From Elusimicrobiota bacterium (GTDB taxonomy: Bacteria > Elusimicrobiota > Elusimicrobia > UBA1565 > UBA9628): 64,000 nucleotides of DNA. Below are positions 43,209-46,535 of the stretch, in pieces (position 1 is the first letter of the stretch; every line of letters starts with the position of its first letter). The translations under genes were made by a program, and so were the position numbers. The notes beneath the pieces were generated by a model. That model had not been told where the DNA came from. It was given only the letters and a program-made list of their open reading frames with translations, and searched no databases. The DNA lies in assembly GCA_016212795.1 (NCBI GenBank), contig JACRDT010000012.1, positions 19,975-83,974 of the forward strand, in the 5' to 3' direction.

Positions 43209-44330
43209 ATGATCGCTTCCACCGGCATGCACCCGCTGTTCCTGCTCATGGCCGCCGTCGGCATCGTCACGGGCCTCTACACCATCTACTCCATCTTCCC
43301 GATGTCCATGCCCGTGCTGTTCGCCTTCAGCGTGATCGGGCTGCTGGTCCGGATCGCCCAGCTGTCGAAGGAGGCGCGGCGCGAGCACGACCCCGGGGAG
43401 GTCATCGATTTCGAGAAGCTCCACGCCAAGGACGTCGCGCGCTACGGCCCCTGGCTCAAGGAGAACCTGCGGGGGCACAACGCGGTCGTGGACCGGGCCC
43501 TCGGAAGGATCCAGTCGAACCTGGCCGTCGCCGTCCCCCAGCGGACGCTGGGCGCCTTCCTCCTGGTGGGCCCGACCGGCACCGGCAAGACCTTCTTCGG
43601 CGAGCTGATGGCCAAGGCCCTCTACCCGGACGGCGAGGTCGTCATCCTCCGCATGAACCAGTACAAGGACCACCAGGACGTGGTCACGCTCATCGGCCCC
43701 CCGCCGGGGCACATGGGCTACGAGATCGGCGGGTCGATCACCCGGCCCGTGCTCGAGGATCCCTACCGCGCCATCGTCCTCGACGAGTTCGACAAGGCGC
43801 ACCCCGACGTCCGGCACTGTCTCTACGACATCCTCGACCGGGCCCAGTGCCGCGAGAAGAGCTCGGGCAGGAACGTCCATTTCAGCGCGTGCGTCTTCTT
43901 CGCCACCTGCAACGCCGGCGTCGAGGACCTGCGCTCCATCTGGGGCGAGTCGGACGACCCGATCGTGCGCACCGGCCGCGCGAGGGAGGCCCTCAGCCGG
44001 CAGGGGTTCGAGAAGGCCCTGCTGGCCCGCTTCGACGATATCCTCCTGATGGATGAGCTCAAGCCCGTGGAGGTCGCGGAGGTCGCCTGCCTCCAGATCG
44101 CCAAGCACTGGCGGCAGTACGGCATCGAGGTCGCCTACGCCTCGCCCGAGCTGCTGGTCGAGGCCGTCAAGAGGAACGTCGAGTTCCAGGAATACGGCGT
44201 GCGCCAGTTGGCGCACCTCATCCAGGAGCTGACGGGCCCGCTCATCGAGGCCGCGCGGCGCAACGGCGTCACCAGCGTCCGGCTCGAGCTCGACCCCAAG
44301 ACCAACCGCGTCACGGTGGCGGAGCGCTGA
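43209..44330 (+). CDS. Membrane-anchored Clp/Hsp100 D2-type AAA+ ATPase (AAA_2 + ClpB D2-small), single module
   Basis: Two N-terminal TM helices; Walker A LLVGPTGTGKT, LIGPPPGHMGYEIGG, Walker B/sensor IVLDEFDKAHPDV and D2-small FEKALLARFDDILLMDEL, all co-linear with ClpB D2. Confidence 0.75.
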   Translation: MIASTGMHPLFLLMAAVGIVTGLYTIYSIFPMSMPVLFAFSVIGLLVRIAQLSKEARREHDPGEVIDFEKLHAKDVARYGPWLKENLRGHNAVVDRALGRIQSNLAVAVPQRTLGAFLLVGPTGTGKTFFGELMAKALYPDGEVVILRMNQYKDHQDVVTLIGPPPGHMGYEIGGSITRPVLEDPYRAIVLDEFDKAHPDVRHCLYDILDRAQCREKSSGRNVHFSACVFFATCNAGVEDLRSIWGESDDPIVRTGRAREALSRQGFEKALLARFDDILLMDELKPVEVAEVACLQIAKHWRQYGIEVAYASPELLVEAVKRNVEFQEYGVRQLAHLIQELTGPLIEAARRNGVTSVRLELDPKTNRVTVAER

Positions 44331-45499
44331 TGGGCCAGTCCTACCAGCCCGGCATGACCGAAGACGTGTGGGTCCAGATCCTCGCCCTGCTGGCGATCGT
44401 CGCCGGCGTGCTGTCGGGCCACTTCTTCTACGGACGGAGCCTGCGGCCCGTCCACGACCCCGGGTGGACGGTCGCCGCCGACCCGATGCCGGCCGCGCCG
44501 TCCCAGCCGCCGGCCGGCGTCGTCCCGGCGTCCGCGCCCGCCCCGACGCCGCCCCAGGCCCCCGCGAGCCGGCCCAGGACCGCCGGCCACTGGATCGTGG
44601 ACGCCAAGATGCCCGCCGACGCCGACTGCGCGACCCTGGCGCAGGCCGTGATGGAATCCCGCGAGGGAGACAGCATCACGCTGCGGCCGGGGACGTACAA
44701 GGAGGGCGTCGTCATCAACAAGTCCCTGACCATCGCGGGGGCGGGGGTGTCCCCCGACCAGGTCACGCTCTCGCACTCGGGCGCCCGGACCGTTGGCGTC
44801 TCGGCCGGCCGCGTCACCCTGGAGAACCTGAGCCTGGGCAACTCGGGCGGGAGCTACGTCGTGGAGGTCGCCAAGGCGCAGGCGACCTTTAAGAACGTCA
44901 GGCTCAGGGCCGCCACCCAGGGCGTGCGCGTCGTGGACGCCGACCTCGACGTCGCGGACTCGGAGCTCGACGCCAAGGTGGCGCTGTCGGTGGAGGGGAT
45001 GTCGCGGGTGAGCCTCCTCCACGCGACGCTCACCGGCGAGCAGGCGGCGGTCTCGGTGTCGGGCGGCCGGGCGGACGTGTCGGTCGAAGGCTCCCGCATC
45101 CAGGACAGCCGGGGCGTCGGCCTCGAGGCGGGCCGGTTCGCCAGGGTCCGCATGAAGGAGGTGTCCCTCACGGGGAACTTCGGCGCCGCGGTGTCCGTGC
45201 GCTCCGGAGCCGACGTGACCATCTCTCGCTCGAAGATCACGGACAACCGCGACTGCGGCGTCCGGGTCGACGGGGCCTTCGTCACGCTGGAGGCGGTGCA
45301 GGTCTCGCGCAACCGCTGCGGGGTGGGGTTCGTGGGGTTGGGCACCCTCAACGCCCGCAACAGCGAGTTCTCGGAGCTGGAGCTGGGCGCCGTCGCCATC
45401 AAGCCGGGGCTCGAGAAGACCGTGATCATCAAGGGGTCGGGGAACATCGGCCTCGAGATCCCCAAGTCCCGGGGCGACGAGAAGAGGCCGGGCCAATAG
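44330..45499 (+). CDS. Single-pass membrane protein with right-handed parallel beta-helix (PbH1/NosD-like) repeats
   Basis: One TM (VWVQILALLAIVAGVLSG); periodic ~22-residue repeats (..VSVSGGRADVSVEGSRIQDSRGVGLEAGRFARVRMKEVSLTGNFGAAVSVRSGADVTISRSKITDN..); start overlaps upstream stop (TGATG). Confidence 0.6.
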   Translation: MGQSYQPGMTEDVWVQILALLAIVAGVLSGHFFYGRSLRPVHDPGWTVAADPMPAAPSQPPAGVVPASAPAPTPPQAPASRPRTAGHWIVDAKMPADADCATLAQAVMESREGDSITLRPGTYKEGVVINKSLTIAGAGVSPDQVTLSHSGARTVGVSAGRVTLENLSLGNSGGSYVVEVAKAQATFKNVRLRAATQGVRVVDADLDVADSELDAKVALSVEGMSRVSLLHATLTGEQAAVSVSGGRADVSVEGSRIQDSRGVGLEAGRFARVRMKEVSLTGNFGAAVSVRSGADVTISRSKITDNRDCGVRVDGAFVTLEAVQVSRNRCGVGFVGLGTLNARNSEFSELELGAVAIKPGLEKTVIIKGSGNIGLEIPKSRGDEKRPGQ

Positions 45500-45512
45500 G
45501 AAGGAGAGGATC

Positions 45513-46535
45513 ATGTCAGAACTGCGCAAGATGACGGATTGGAGCAAGCTCCGCGACATGGTGGAGAGCACCCGGCTCGACGACAAGAGCCGCAAGGTCG
45601 ACGAGACCAAGCTCCTGGACCACCTCAATTCAAGGGTCAAGGGCCAAGACGAGGTCATCAAGGACGTGGCCAAGCTGATCAACTTGAGCTGGCGCAAGCA
45701 GGAGCGCACCCGGCCCATCTGCAGCATGCTCTTCCTGGGTCCCACGGGCACCGGCAAGACCGAGCTCGCCAAGGCCCTGACCGAGTACCTCTACGGCAGC
45801 GAGAAGGACATGCTGCGCTTCGACTGCTCGGAGCTCTCCAGCCCGGACATGGCCAAGAGCCGCCTGACCGGCTCCTCGTCCGGCTACAAGGACTCCGAGT
45901 CGGGCGGCCAGCTGACCCGCCCCATGATGGCCAACCCCCGGCGGCTGGTCCTCTTCGACGAGATCGAGAAGGCCCACCCCCTCGTGTTCGACCTGCTGCT
46001 CCAGCTCATGGGGGACGGCCGCCTGACCGAGCAGAGCTCCGGCAAGACCGCGGACTTCACCCAGGCGATCGTCGTGCTCACGAGCAACGCCATCGCCGAC
46101 GAGGTCGGCAAGGCGGTGGAGGGCCTGACCGACTACCACGAGATCGTCAACGCCGTCAAGACCCTGCTCGCCGAGCACGGCACCTTCCGGCCCGAGATCC
46201 TGGGCCGCATCGACAAGGTCTACATGTTCAAGCCGCTGCAGGGCATGATCATCGCGGAGATCGCGCTCCTGAAGATCGAGCGCCTCGCCAAGGAGTACGG
46301 GCTGACCGTGGAGTTCATCGCGCCCGAGCTCCTGATGCAGGCCCTCGAGGCCAACATGAAGGTGAGCAAGTTCGGCATCCGGGAGCTCGAGCGCATCCTC
46401 TTCGACAAGTTCGCCTCCCACATGGTCGAGATGCGCGAGAAGAGGGCCAAGGCGGTGTCGTTCGACATCGACGAGGGCGGCCAGATCGTCTGCCGCTACC
46501 AGGGCCCGCCGGAAACCCCCGGGCCCAAGAAGTAG
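45513..46535 (+). CDS. Cytoplasmic Clp/Hsp100 D2-type AAA+ ATPase, paralogue of 43209..44330
   Basis: VKGQDEVIKDVAKLI..RPICSMLFLGPTGTGKTELAKAL..LVLFDEIEKAHPLVFDLLLQLMGDGRLTE..VVLTSN, co-linear with the ClpB D2 domain; no TM. Confidence 0.75.
   Translation: MSELRKMTDWSKLRDMVESTRLDDKSRKVDETKLLDHLNSRVKGQDEVIKDVAKLINLSWRKQERTRPICSMLFLGPTGTGKTELAKALTEYLYGSEKDMLRFDCSELSSPDMAKSRLTGSSSGYKDSESGGQLTRPMMANPRRLVLFDEIEKAHPLVFDLLLQLMGDGRLTEQSSGKTADFTQAIVVLTSNAIADEVGKAVEGLTDYHEIVNAVKTLLAEHGTFRPEILGRIDKVYMFKPLQGMIIAEIALLKIERLAKEYGLTVEFIAPELLMQALEANMKVSKFGIRELERILFDKFASHMVEMREKRAKAVSFDIDEGGQIVCRYQGPPETPGPKK

What the first reader, a model, noticed from the sequence alone, without database searches (positions are those of the whole stretch)
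43209..46535. Operon of two stand-alone Clp/Hsp100 D2-type AAA+ ATPases (one membrane-anchored) flanking a membrane beta-helix protein
**Seen in sequence.**
- Gene 1 has 2 TM helices plus one AAA_2 / ClpB-D2-small module.
- Gene 2 has 1 TM plus PbH1 beta-helix repeats, and its ATG overlaps the gene 1 stop.
- Gene 3, 14 nt further on, is a soluble paralogous D2 module.
- Both ATPases align along the whole ClpB D2 domain, including Walker A/B, GYVGYEEGG-like loop, sensor 2 and D2-small.
- Both lack an N-domain, a D1 module, a middle domain and a ClpP-binding loop.

**Established knowledge.** Clp/Hsp100 unfoldases are normally two-ring (D1+D2) soluble proteins.

**Inference.** An envelope-associated hetero-oligomeric AAA+ machine, perhaps extracting or remodelling a periplasmic beta-helix partner. 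This is not a system I can name. The adjacent secreted kinase-like gene (46645..47736) may belong to it.
Basis: partly seen in the sequence, partly recalled or inferred. Interest (0 to 1): 0.8.

Follow-up and report, generated by a model that had tools for sequence, protein, structure and literature searches.

The report
Membrane-tethered split Clp-D2 ATPase module
Three tightly packed genes encode a membrane-anchored, partly degenerate Clp-type ATPase, a fully competent soluble sister ATPase and a membrane-anchored beta-helix protein; the set recurs in at least three bacterial phyla, has not been described, and probably forms an ATP-driven machine at the inner membrane.

Summary
g1 (43209-44330) is a TM hairpin plus one complete ClpB-D2-type AAA+ module. 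g2 (44330-45499) is one TM helix, a disordered linker and a right-handed beta-helix. g3 (45513-46535) is a soluble D2 module. There is no D1, N-domain, M-domain or ClpP loop, and no clpB remnant in the window.

The genes are not fragments. g1 and g3 each head a large conserved family, and they lie together in 18 of 21 informative loci from Elusimicrobiota, Verrucomicrobiota, Bacteriovoracaceae and unplaced lineages, sometimes in permuted order.

New points:
- g1 is systematically degenerate: 0 of 120 members keep the Arg finger, and the pore-loop aromatic is variable or deleted. g3 keeps both in at least 117 of 118 members.
- The beta-helix is exchangeable with Sel1, Ycf48-like propeller or PEGA domains. 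The conserved part is a short N-terminal tail plus TM "handle" ([ND]xW[FV]Q).
- A fourth gene, g0, belongs to the ancestral module but is absent from this window.
- The neighbouring "kinase-like" gene does not belong.

The best reading is a membrane-tethered two-component Hsp100-type machine acting on or through the handle protein. I found no paper describing it. The mechanism is inferred, not shown.

The parts
43209..44330 (+). g1: membrane-anchored, degenerate ClpB-D2-type AAA+ ATPase (373 aa)
   Evidence: ORF; AAA_2 4e-26; aligns to ClpB 565-834; AF2 pLDDT 84, Foldseek ClpB NBD2 TMt 0.79-0.83; family of at least 120 clusters at 50-72% identity.
43233..43388 (+). g1 TM hairpin (residues 9-60)
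   Evidence: Hydropathy; AF2 helices 9-29 and 33-60; P9 and P35 invariant in 15 relatives.
43695..43733 (+). g1 degenerate pore-loop-1 (GPPPGHMGYEIGG, residues 163-175; H168 replaces ClpB Tyr653)
   Evidence: Alignment to E. coli ClpB. Position 168 across 120 relatives: Y37 S31 Q23 H13 M5 R5 A3 and others. The segment is deleted in distant g1-type proteins.
44007..44015 (+). g1 Arg-finger-equivalent F267-E268-K269 (ClpB F-R756-P)
   Evidence: alignment. Position 268 is E (72) or D (48) and never R; position 269 is R (68) or K (52).
44330..45499 (+). g2: N-terminally anchored beta-helix protein (389 aa)
   Evidence: ORF; Beta_helix 1.4e-10; AF2 pLDDT 82.7; generic carbohydrate-active beta-helix neighbours at TM 0.4-0.5.
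44330..44440 (+). g2 conserved 'handle': short N-tail + motif E11-D12-V13-W14-V15-Q16 + TM helix (residues 1-37)
   Evidence: Motif [ND]xW[FV]Q at the TM start in 19 of 20 aligned post-g1 genes, whatever the C-terminal domain, and in L169. It occurs only once in the window.
44441..44578 (+). g2 Pro/Ala-rich disordered linker (residues 38-83)
   Evidence: pLDDT below 50; low-complexity P/S/T/N linkers at this place in the orthologues.
44588..45439 (+). g2 right-handed parallel beta-helix (residues 87-370)
   Evidence: AF2 strands with pLDDT above 90; Foldseek. Residues conserved in 22 orthologues are mainly the N-cap (W88, D91, D99, G113-D114, G121, Y123, K131, G137) and an Asn ladder (N166, N283, N306).
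45513..46535 (+). g3: soluble, fully equipped ClpB-D2-type AAA+ ATPase (340 aa)
   Evidence: ORF; AAA_2 2.9e-39; ClpB NBD2 E=9e-49; family at 58-80% identity.
45531..45551 (+). g3 N-terminal motif M-T-D-W-S-K-L (residues 7-13)
   Evidence: T8 118/118, D9 114/118, W10 118/118, L13 117/118. The motif lies upstream of the region that aligns to ClpB D2.
45882..45893 (+). g3 pore-loop G124-Y125-K126-D127
   Evidence: Aligned to ClpB GYVG; aromatic (Y82/F35) in 117 of 118.
46185..46196 (+). g3 Arg-finger motif F225-R226-P227-E228
   Evidence: Aligned to ClpB FRPE; R226 in 118 of 118.

Best explanation
The three genes are one operon-like module encoding a membrane-tethered, two-component Hsp100/Clp-D2-type AAA+ machine.

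g3 is the motor. It has intact Walker A/B, sensor 1 and 2, Arg finger and an aromatic pore loop.

g1 is a D2 paralogue fixed to the cytoplasmic face of the inner membrane by a TM hairpin. It still binds and probably hydrolyses ATP, because Walker A/B and both sensors are invariant. It has lost the canonical trans Arg finger and a conserved pore-loop aromatic. It therefore most likely works as the membrane receptor or regulatory partner of g3, in a mixed ring or a stacked assembly. In a mixed ring, g3's Arg finger would complete g1's ATP site, a complementation logic like that of Torsin and LAP1.

The assembly acts on or through the co-encoded single-pass protein g2. The invariant part of g2 is its short N-terminal tail plus TM helix, the [ND]xW[FV]Q 'handle'. 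Its extracytoplasmic domain is exchangeable: beta-helix here, Sel1, propeller or PEGA elsewhere.

ATP-driven pulling on the handle would either dislocate or recycle the protein, or transmit force or a conformational change to its periplasmic binding domain.

Shown: domain composition, motif conservation and degeneracy, synteny, handle conservation.

Inferred: physical g1-g3-g2 association, N-in/C-out topology of g2, and the direction and purpose of the work done.
For: Tight gene packing: 1-nt overlap between g1 and g2, 13-nt spacer with an SD-like sequence before g3.

g1 and g3 are adjacent or near-adjacent in 18 of 21 informative loci: Elusimicrobiota, Verrucomicrobiota/Udaeobacter, Bacteriovoracaceae, a 34%-GC lineage and others. 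This includes permuted orders (g3-g0-g1-g2like), which argues for functional rather than accidental linkage.

Complementary motif pattern:
- g1 family (n=120): Walker A K 119, Walker B DE at least 117, sensor-1 N 120, sensor-2 R 120. Arg-finger position E/D 120/120. Pore aromatic only 38/120, and the loop is deleted in distant members.
- g3 family (n=118): R226 118/118, pore Y/F 117/118.

The gene after g1 keeps the same N-terminal tail+TM motif while its ectodomain changes: beta-helix, Sel1 2e-154, PSII_BNR 1.4e-35, PEGA. L003 has two tandem handle proteins.

The g1 model is a TM hairpin plus a complete D2 fold. The g2 model is TM, disordered linker and beta-helix.

Accessory gene g0 is N-in with a conserved C-terminal extracytoplasmic domain. 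DsbA-like genes follow g3 in one lineage. Structural neighbours of the g2 beta-helix are secreted or periplasmic enzymes. All of this points to the envelope.

The Torsin precedent for active-site complementation in a Clp-like, membrane-associated ATPase without pore aromatics comes from PMC5425593.
Against: g1 always has K/R one residue after the lost Arg. That residue could act as a substitute finger and let g1 work as a homo-oligomer.

A strictly alternating ring would leave g3's own ATP sites without an Arg finger, which sits badly with g3's perfectly conserved cis elements. Stacked or separate rings are equally possible.

The positive-inside rule does not settle g2 topology. The window's g2 tail is acidic.

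The cytoplasmic tail is only 8-13 aa in most orthologues, which is short for engagement by an AAA+ pore.

Three loci lack a nearby g3 (L003, L006, L166). One divergent g3-type lineage has FAPE instead of FRPE.

No consensus promoter or terminator was found, so co-transcription rests on spacing only.
Confidence: 0.45

Rival explanations
1. Receptor model (ERAD-like, FtsH-like or Msp1-like). g2-type proteins are not the client. They are stably bound periplasmic receptors or adaptors whose repeat domains (beta-helix, Sel1, propeller, PEGA) capture other envelope proteins or glycans. The g1/g3 ATPase pair then extracts, retro-translocates or remodels those third-party substrates at the inner membrane.
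For: All ectodomain types are binding scaffolds rather than obvious enzymes. Across 22 beta-helix orthologues, the conserved residues are mostly N-cap and Asn-ladder positions, with no evident catalytic set. Translational coupling of g1 and g2 suits stoichiometric subunits. g0 adds a second conserved periplasmic domain.
Against: No candidate channel or third-party substrate was identified. The only TM segments are the g1 hairpin and single helices of g0 and g2. No protease is conserved in the module.
Confidence: 0.2
2. Mechanotransmission without threading. The ATPase cycle of g1/g3 is relayed through the TM helices to switch the periplasmic domain on and off, as ABC ATPases do in FtsEX, MacB, LolCDE or NosDFY (comparison from general knowledge).
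For: The architecture runs parallel: cytoplasmic ATPase, small TM segments and a periplasmic beta-helix. There is a weak NosD-like signal in g2 (TIGR04247 E=9.6e-12, PF05048). The very short cytoplasmic tail of g2 disfavours threading.
Against: g3 keeps an aromatic pore loop in 117 of 118 members, which points to polypeptide translocation. No known AAA+ works this way. g2 falls far below the NosD family cut-off (44 vs 300 bits).
Confidence: 0.12
3. AAA+-driven export or insertion device. g3 unfolds and pushes handle-bearing cargo through a membrane assembly built from g1 hairpins, with or without g0. This would be analogous to HSP101-EXP2 in PTEX or to Bcs1 (comparison from general knowledge). 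The handle would be the targeting signal.
For: A conserved N-terminal signal on otherwise unrelated extracytoplasmic domains resembles a dedicated sorting signal. Tandem cargo-like paralogues occur in L003. HSP101 is among the D2 homologues found in the PDB.
Against: The handle looks like an ordinary Sec-type signal anchor (basic n-region plus hydrophobic core), so a special exporter is not needed. Twelve hairpin helices are a thin basis for a protein-conducting channel. Only one handle protein is encoded in the window.
Confidence: 0.08
4. Anti-phage defence system related to Dodola (DolB) or candidate PDC-M37.
For: PADLOC models PDC-M37B and DolB match both ATPases (g3: 1.7e-28 and 2.6e-18; g1: 2.6e-16 and 5.9e-9).
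Against: The matches cover only the AAA core. g2 and g4 match nothing in PADLOC, so no DolA-like partner is present. The neighbours are housekeeping or envelope genes: pta, a Ser/Thr kinase, a permease, Mla, COX. GC content equals the surroundings. Plasmids and phages hold no relative above 35% identity. g1 and g3 clades track taxonomy.
Confidence: 0.04
5. The two ATPase genes are fragments of a disrupted full-length clpB/clpA.
For: None beyond the D2-only homology.
Against: No D1-encoding DNA is present in the window. Both proteins have their own large families of the same length and architecture across phyla. Each has family-specific invariant features: the g1 TM hairpin and EKSS motif, the g3 MTDW motif.
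Confidence: 0.01

Closest known systems
ClpB/Hsp104 NBD2 (D2 ring of class-1 Clp/Hsp100)
   Same: It is the best sequence and fold match for both ATPases: AAA_2, pre-sensor-1 hairpin region, sensor-2 G-x-R and the small domain. g3 keeps the GY..-type pore loop and the FRPE Arg finger.
   Different: No N-domain, D1 or M-domain, so no DnaK-coupled disaggregase architecture. The D2 function is split over two polypeptides, one of them membrane-anchored and degenerate.
Skd3 / human CLPB (ankyrin repeats + single D2-type ring)
   Same: It is a stand-alone D2-type Hsp100 that works as a single ring. It appears among the PDB hits (g3 E about 1e-29 to 1e-30). That a D2-only ring can be a motor is from general knowledge.
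   Different: No ankyrin domain here. This system is bacterial and cytoplasmic-face, not in the mitochondrial intermembrane space, and it comes as a g1/g3 pair with a membrane anchor.
Torsin with LAP1/LULL1
   Same: g1 resembles Torsin in being Clp-like, having an N-terminal hydrophobic membrane anchor, no Arg finger and no conserved aromatic pore loop. A co-encoded partner carries the Arg finger (Torsin features from PMC5425593; g1 features).
   Different: It is not a Torsin family member: PF06309 scores 18-22 bits against a cut-off of 27, and Torsin-1A scores 22 bits against 150-163 for ClpB/ClpC with the g1 profile. The partner g3 is a complete ATPase, not a nucleotide-free AAA-like cofactor. 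The system sits on the cytoplasmic face of a bacterial membrane, not in the ER lumen.
Membrane-anchored AAA+ extractors (FtsH, Msp1/ATAD1)
   Same: N-terminal TM anchor plus a single AAA+ module at the membrane surface. Acting on tails of membrane proteins is plausible (general knowledge).
   Different: They belong to a different AAA+ clade (classical AAA, not HCLR/Clp D2). There is no protease domain here. The anchored subunit (g1) lacks the pore aromatic, and the motor is a separate soluble protein.
NosDFY (periplasmic beta-helix NosD + membrane NosY + ATPase NosF)
   Same: A periplasmic right-handed beta-helix is coupled through membrane segments to a cytoplasmic ATPase. g2 shows weak NosD-like hits.
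   Different: The ATPase here is AAA+, not ABC. g2 is far below the NosD family cut-off (44 vs 300 bits). No nos genes are nearby, and other folds can replace the beta-helix.
Dodola DolB / PDC-M37B (defence-associated ClpB-like ATPases)
   Same: Single Clp-like AAA+ proteins; PADLOC HMMs give partial matches.
   Different: Only the AAA core is matched. There is no DolA-like partner and no defence-island or mobile context.

Membership tests
Class-1 Clp/Hsp100 (ClpB, ClpA, ClpC) | Two AAA+ modules (D1 + D2) with an N-domain in one polypeptide | tested here: not met
   The proteins are 373 and 340 aa. NCBIfam ClpB/ClpA models match only positions about 555-850, at 127-205 bits against cut-offs of 993-1232. 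No D1 DNA is present in the window.
Class-1 Clp/Hsp100 (ClpB, ClpA, ClpC) | D2-type AAA+ module (AAA_2 large domain + D2-small domain, sensor-2 GxR) | tested here: met
   AAA_2 4e-26 and 2.9e-39. Alignment runs through ClpB 766-834. The g1 model matches ClpB NBD2 at TMt 0.79-0.83. PF10431 itself does not score.
Class-1 Clp/Hsp100 (ClpB, ClpA, ClpC) | Conserved aromatic pore-loop residue and trans Arg finger in D2 | tested here: inconclusive
   g3 meets both (Y/F 117/118; R226 118/118). g1 meets neither (aromatic 38/120; Arg 0/120, with E/D instead).
Class-1 Clp/Hsp100 (ClpA/ClpC type) | ClpP-docking [ILV]-G-[FL] loop | tested here: not met
   Where ClpC has VGF, g3 has VGK, in a gapped region that varies across the family. 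g1 has no such loop.
ClpV/TssH (type VI secretion ATPase) | Full-length TssH above the family cut-off, within a T6SS gene cluster | tested here: not met
   TIGR03345 scores 131 and 146 bits against a cut-off of 885, D2 part only. The annotated neighbours are pta, a kinase, a permease, DUF1646, ABC and PorV-like genes; none is a T6SS gene.
Torsin (PF06309) | Match to the Torsin family model above threshold | tested here: not met
   18.1 bits (g1) and 22 bits (g3) against a cut-off of 27, N-terminal P-loop part only. Torsin-1A scores 22 bits with the g1 profile against 150-163 for ClpC/ClpB. Torsin is absent from the Foldseek top 50.
Torsin (functional hallmarks) | Membrane-associated Clp-like AAA+ lacking an Arg finger and aromatic pore loops, completed by a partner's Arg finger | tested here: inconclusive
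   The first three hallmarks hold for g1. Completion by g3 is inferred only; no complex prediction or biochemistry was possible.
Dodola (DolA + DolB) | A DolB ATPase together with a DolA partner gene | tested here: not met
   DolB HMM matches are partial (profile positions about 121-278 of 375; E 5.9e-9 and 2.6e-18). g2 and g4 give no PADLOC hit.
NosD (TIGR04247 / PF05048) for g2 | Family-level match, with nosZ/nosF/nosY neighbours | tested here: not met
   44.2 bits against a cut-off of 300, N-cap region only. PF05048 scores 16 bits against 23.6. No nos genes are among the annotated neighbours.
Right-handed parallel beta-helix fold (PF13229) for g2 | Beta_helix model above threshold, and a beta-helix fold | tested here: met
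   41.5 bits against a cut-off of 25.9. AF2 gives a beta-helix over 87-370 with pLDDT above 90. Foldseek matches AlgE4, Pel9A, PME, GH87 and PL6 at probability 1.0.

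The most novel reading that the evidence does not exclude
The module would be a bacterial AAA+-powered trans-membrane extraction or retro-translocation machine. 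A Torsin-like, Arg-finger-less membrane subunit (g1) is activated by a competent Clp-D2 motor (g3). Together they pull on the N-terminal handle of exchangeable periplasmic receptor proteins (beta-helix, Sel1, propeller, PEGA). This would be an ERAD/Msp1-like logic at the bacterial inner membrane, and a prokaryotic example of Torsin-type active-site complementation.
Probability: 0.15. Interest if true: 0.85.

Novelty: new variant of a known kind. Interest (0 to 1): 0.62.

Why it matters
Hsp100/Clp unfoldases are textbook soluble, double-ring machines. Here the D2 ring alone has been split into two co-inherited genes. One is nailed to the membrane and has lost exactly the elements (Arg finger, pore aromatic) that the other keeps.

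That is the arrangement that makes eukaryotic Torsins puzzling, but it occurs in bacteria and next to its probable partner or client. If the pair forms a complementing assembly, it offers a tractable prokaryotic model for cofactor-completed Clp-like ATPases.

It could also reveal an ATP-driven way of acting on envelope proteins from the cytoplasm. The module is widespread in Elusimicrobiota and soil Verrucomicrobiota (Udaeobacter), which are poorly studied lineages, and automated annotation mislabels it as 'ATP-dependent Clp protease ATP-binding subunit'. The conserved [ND]xW[FV]Q N-terminal handle could serve as a search key for further clients.

Tried and rejected
- **clpB fragments:** rejected. 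No D1 DNA in the window, and both proteins have their own conserved families.
- **Torsin membership:** rejected by the Pfam threshold, the PDB profile search and Foldseek.
- **ClpV/T6SS, Dodola/PDC-M37 and NosD memberships:** rejected.
- **g4 (46645-47736) as a member:** rejected. No homologue in any related locus; no Pfam or PDB match.
- **A g0 homologue in the window:** none found by tblastn or HMM.
- **Positive-inside rule for g2 topology:** inconclusive.
- **Sigma-70 promoter and intrinsic terminator scan of 42900-46800:** nothing found.
- **PF10431 at relaxed threshold on the isolated C-termini:** no hit.
- **Catalytic residues in the beta-helix:** only structural-looking conservation. 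Fold neighbours are generic.
- **Literature:** four full-text searches found no description of the module.
- **Plasmid and phage collections:** only generic ClpB/TssH D2 hits below 35% identity.
- **L170 and L171** (divergent g3-type contexts): seen only as gene tables.
- **Complex prediction of g1+g3 or g1+g2:** not possible with the tools.

Full report
**1. What is in the window**

The region 43209-46535 carries three same-strand ORFs exactly as described. These are g1 43209-44330 (373 aa), g2 44330-45499 (389 aa) and g3 45513-46535 (340 aa). The g1 stop and g2 start share one base (CTGATGG). A 13-nt spacer containing GGAAGGAGAGG precedes g3.

All three proteins are identical to proteins annotated in an Elusimicrobia MAG (P0001, P0241, P0121). 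GC content (0.69) matches the rest of the window.

Upstream lies pta (PTA_PTB 2.7e-119), ending 145 bp before g1, and beyond it a Ser/Thr kinase. Downstream lie an unassigned secreted-looking protein (g4), an amino-acid permease, a DUF1646 membrane protein and an ABC ATPase. No consensus sigma-70 promoter or intrinsic terminator is detectable in 42900-46800. Operon status therefore rests on spacing and on conservation of the arrangement.

**2. The two ATPases**

Pfam gives AAA_2 for g1 (4e-26) and g3 (2.9e-39). NCBIfam ClpB/ClpA/ClpV/ClpK/ClpG models match only their D2 portions (model positions about 555-850), at scores far below the family cut-offs. Against PDB sequences, both align to ClpB/ClpC/ClpA/Hsp104 NBD2 through the small domain.

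The AlphaFold model of g1 (pLDDT 84) is a helical hairpin (9-29, 33-60) followed by a complete D2 fold. It superposes on isolated T. thermophilus ClpB NBD2 crystals at TM 0.79-0.83 normalised to the target.

There is no D1, N-domain or M-domain. tblastn with D1-containing N-terminal halves of seven Clp proteins finds nothing else in the window. Where ClpC carries its VGF ClpP loop, g3 has a gapped, variable segment (VGK).

**3. g1 is degenerate, g3 is complete**

Aligned to E. coli ClpB, the g1 pore loop GYVG reads GHMG, and the Arg-finger motif F-R756-P-E reads F-E-K-A.

| Position | g1 family (n=120) | g3 family (n=118) |
|---|---|---|
| Walker A Lys | 119 | 117 |
| Walker B | D 119, E 117 | D 118, E 118 |
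| Sensor-1 Asn | 120 | 118 |
| Sensor-2 Arg | 120 | 118 |
| Pore-loop aromatic position | Y37 S31 Q23 H13 M5 R5 A3 and others | Y82 F35 |
| Arg-finger position | E72 D48, never Arg | R 118 |
| Residue after the Arg-finger position | R68 K52 | not examined |

In more distant g1-type proteins (about 30% identity) the whole GPPPGxxGYExGG segment is deleted, while F-[ED]-[KR] and the Walker motifs persist.

g3 also has an invariant N-terminal T8-D9-W10-x-x-L13 motif outside the D2 homology. g1 carries an invariant E216-K217-S218-S219 motif in the loop before the sensor-1 strand.

g1 and g3 are only 28% identical, and each is 30-42% identical to genuine Clp D2 domains. A rough NJ tree gives three clades: canonical Clp D2, g1-type and g3-type. 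The last two fall on the same side of the midpoint root, which is weak evidence for an old duplication of a stand-alone D2.

**4. Synteny**

I gathered neighbourhoods of divergent g1 or g3 relatives from exact-protein look-ups, a GTDB representative scan and a metagenome scan.

- g1 and g3 lie together in the window and in L001, L004, L005, L007-L012, L087, L089, L092, L093, L094, L165, L169 and the P0272 contig. That is 18 of 21 informative loci.
- The taxa covered are Elusimicrobiota, Candidatus Udaeobacter and other Verrucomicrobiota, a Bacteriovoracaceae MAG (low GC), a 34%-GC lineage and unplaced contigs.
- The exceptions are L003 (g1 C-terminus frameshifted), L006 and L166.
- In L089 and L092 the order is g3-g0-g1-g2like. 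L169 has two g3-type copies around g1.
- Flanking genes are unrelated from locus to locus, so the module is self-contained.
- g3 is the most conserved gene (51-79% identity to the window protein), g1 is intermediate (31-70%), and the middle gene evolves fastest (22-49%).

All other loci returned by the scans are ordinary 750-950-aa ClpB/ClpC genes.

**5. The middle gene: the handle is conserved, the beta-helix is not**

The g2 model (pLDDT 82.7) has a TM helix (9-37), a disordered Pro/Ala linker (38-83) and a right-handed beta-helix (87-370, pLDDT above 90).

Its nearest solved folds are secreted or periplasmic carbohydrate-active beta-helices: AlgE4 epimerase, Pel9A, pectin methylesterases, GH87 and PL6. 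TM-scores are only 0.4-0.5 at about 12% identity. Residues conserved across 22 beta-helix orthologues are mainly N-cap and Asn-ladder positions. I see no catalytic signature.

The gene that follows g1 is a beta-helix in most loci, with these exceptions:

| Locus | Ectodomain of the post-g1 gene | Evidence |
|---|---|---|
| L089 | 16 Sel1 repeats | 2e-154 |
| L003 | two paralogues, one unassigned (no Pfam match) and one Sel1-like by sequence (not scanned against Pfam) | — |
| L092 | Ycf48/BNR propeller | PSII_BNR 1.4e-35 |
| L169 | PEGA-domain protein | — |

All of them share the same N-terminus: a tail of usually 8-13 residues, then [ND]-x-W-[FV]-[QVI]-[LMV]-[FCL] running into the TM helix. 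The motif was found in 19 of 20 aligned sequences and again in L169. The two low-GC lineages keep the tail and TM but not the Trp. In the 64-kb window this motif occurs only in g2.

The charge balance around the TM is ambiguous. Four things favour N-in/C-out: the basic n-region in most orthologues, the low-complexity linkers, the nature of the ectodomains, and the DsbA-like genes that follow g3 in one lineage. I put this at roughly 70%, as an inference.

**6. A fourth gene that the window lacks**

A bitopic protein, g0, sits directly upstream of g1, often overlapping its start. It is 200-300 aa, with a basic cytoplasmic N-region, one TM segment and a conserved C-terminal domain of about 110 aa (...EDGDxV...DGxGGxT...). 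It matches no Pfam family.

It is present in the Verrucomicrobiota-type loci, in Elusimicrobiota L011 and L094, and in L089, L092, L165 and L166. In L169 it is fused to Sel1 repeats. Its two BLAST clusters are linked by an HMM at E about 1e-7.

The window has no g0 by tblastn or HMM. The window's clade of Elusimicrobiota therefore carries a reduced three-gene version. g4 has no homologue in any related locus and no Pfam or PDB match. It is not part of the module.

**7. How it most likely works**

What is shown:
- g3 is a competent translocating D2 ATPase.
- g1 is a membrane-anchored D2 ATPase that keeps its cis catalytic residues but lacks the canonical trans Arg finger and a conserved pore aromatic.
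- A single-pass protein has a conserved N-terminal tail+TM and an exchangeable ectodomain.
- All of these are co-inherited.

What I infer:
- g1 tethers or regulates g3 at the inner membrane, in a mixed or stacked assembly.
- In a mixed ring, g3's Arg finger would complete g1's ATP site. This is the logic described for Torsin with LAP1/LULL1. Torsins are Clp-like, membrane-associated, and lack both an Arg finger and aromatic pore loops (PMC5425593).
- The assembly works on or through the handle of the g2-type protein, either dislocating or recycling it, or transmitting force to its periplasmic domain.

Caveats:
- The invariant K/R next to the lost Arg could serve as a substitute finger.
- An alternating ring would starve g3's own sites of an Arg finger.
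- The cytoplasmic tail of g2 is short.
- No physical contact has been tested.

Rivals, in decreasing order of my estimate: g2-type proteins as periplasmic receptors for third-party substrates (ERAD-like or FtsH-like extraction); mechanotransmission without threading (NosDFY/FtsEX-like); a PTEX/Bcs1-like export device; a defence system; clpB debris.

The last two are disfavoured or refuted. PADLOC matches cover the AAA core only and there is no partner gene. The genomic context is housekeeping. There are no plasmid or phage relatives. The window has no D1 DNA.

**8. Comparison with known systems and novelty**

By sequence and fold, both ATPases are Clp/Hsp100 D2 modules. They fail membership of ClpB/ClpA/ClpC, ClpV, Torsin and DolB on defining features (see the membership table).

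Single-D2 Hsp100s do exist: Skd3/CLPB appears among the PDB hits, and Torsin is another. 'Single ring' alone is therefore not new.

What I could not find described in four full-text searches or in the NCBIfam, Pfam or PADLOC libraries is the combination:
- a co-inherited pair of D2 ATPases, one competent and one degenerate, with the degenerate one anchored by a TM hairpin;
- a handle-bearing envelope protein with swappable ectodomains;
- the accessory gene g0.

The exhaustive profile search shows that the g1 type extends to about 30%-identity relatives with the same context. I rate it a new variant of a known kind. It is of real interest to AAA+ and envelope biologists, but the mechanism is still inferred.

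Noticed in passing
window 46645-47736 (+) (longer ORF from 46570): g4 has a signal-peptide-like N-terminus and an Ala/Pro-rich linker. Its C-terminal domain of about 200 aa shows protein-kinase-like motifs by eye (GEGTGAFVY, VVK, DLNLGN, IDAGGF). It has no Pfam or PDB match, only a weak NCBIfam MAD6-kinase hit (E=0.0085), and no homologue in any related locus.
   Followed up: partly
window 39865-41976 (+): Ser/Thr protein kinase (Pkinase 2.8e-54) with a receiver-like domain ahead of the kinase (Response_reg 8.8e-6, below cut-off). This is an unusual fusion, two genes upstream of the module.
   Followed up: no
window 34976-38692 (-) and 38715-39785 (-): A 1238-aa secreted protein with N_BRCA1_IG domains and a weak FlgD_ig-like C-terminus lies next to a PorV-like outer-membrane protein (PF19572, 4.4e-8). 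This could be a type-IX-secretion-style cargo and shuttle pair in an Elusimicrobia genome.
   Followed up: no
L003 6992-10730: In this Verrucomicrobiota locus the g1 C-terminus looks frameshifted. It is followed by two tandem handle proteins with near-identical N-termini (MQRQPILQNSWFQLF...), one with no Pfam match and one that looks Sel1-like by sequence. No g3 is nearby.
   Followed up: partly
L011 9116-10327 (complete genome CP096137.1): The middle gene is split over two reading frames within its Pro-rich linker. This is either a pseudogene or an assembly error in a homopolymeric, GC-rich stretch.
   Followed up: no
L169 4128-10755: This variant module reads small gene, g3-type, g0 fused to Sel1 repeats, g1, handle protein with PEGA domain, second g3-type. 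Both g3-type copies read FAPE instead of FRPE, so the Arg finger is lost in this lineage.
   Followed up: partly
JGI 3300050821 contig carrying P0272 (no DNA held), genes 7315-9089: Two DsbA-like thioredoxin genes directly follow g3, and the first overlaps the g3 stop codon. This hints at a link to periplasmic disulfide formation. The window's g2 and its seven closest relatives (alignment A2) share two invariant Cys (C309, C330).
   Followed up: no
L170 4750-13002: A divergent g3-type gene sits next to a 409-aa weak-AAA_2 protein. It is followed by TraG/VirD4-like coupling protein, Lipase_3 and zeta-toxin genes, which may be a mobile-element context for a distant branch of the family.
   Followed up: no
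window 45531-45551 vs 44360-44377: The invariant g3 N-terminal motif (M-T-D-W-x-K-L) resembles the handle motif of g2-type proteins ([ND]-x-W-[FV]-Q). It could be coincidence, or both could dock at the same site on g1.
   Followed up: no
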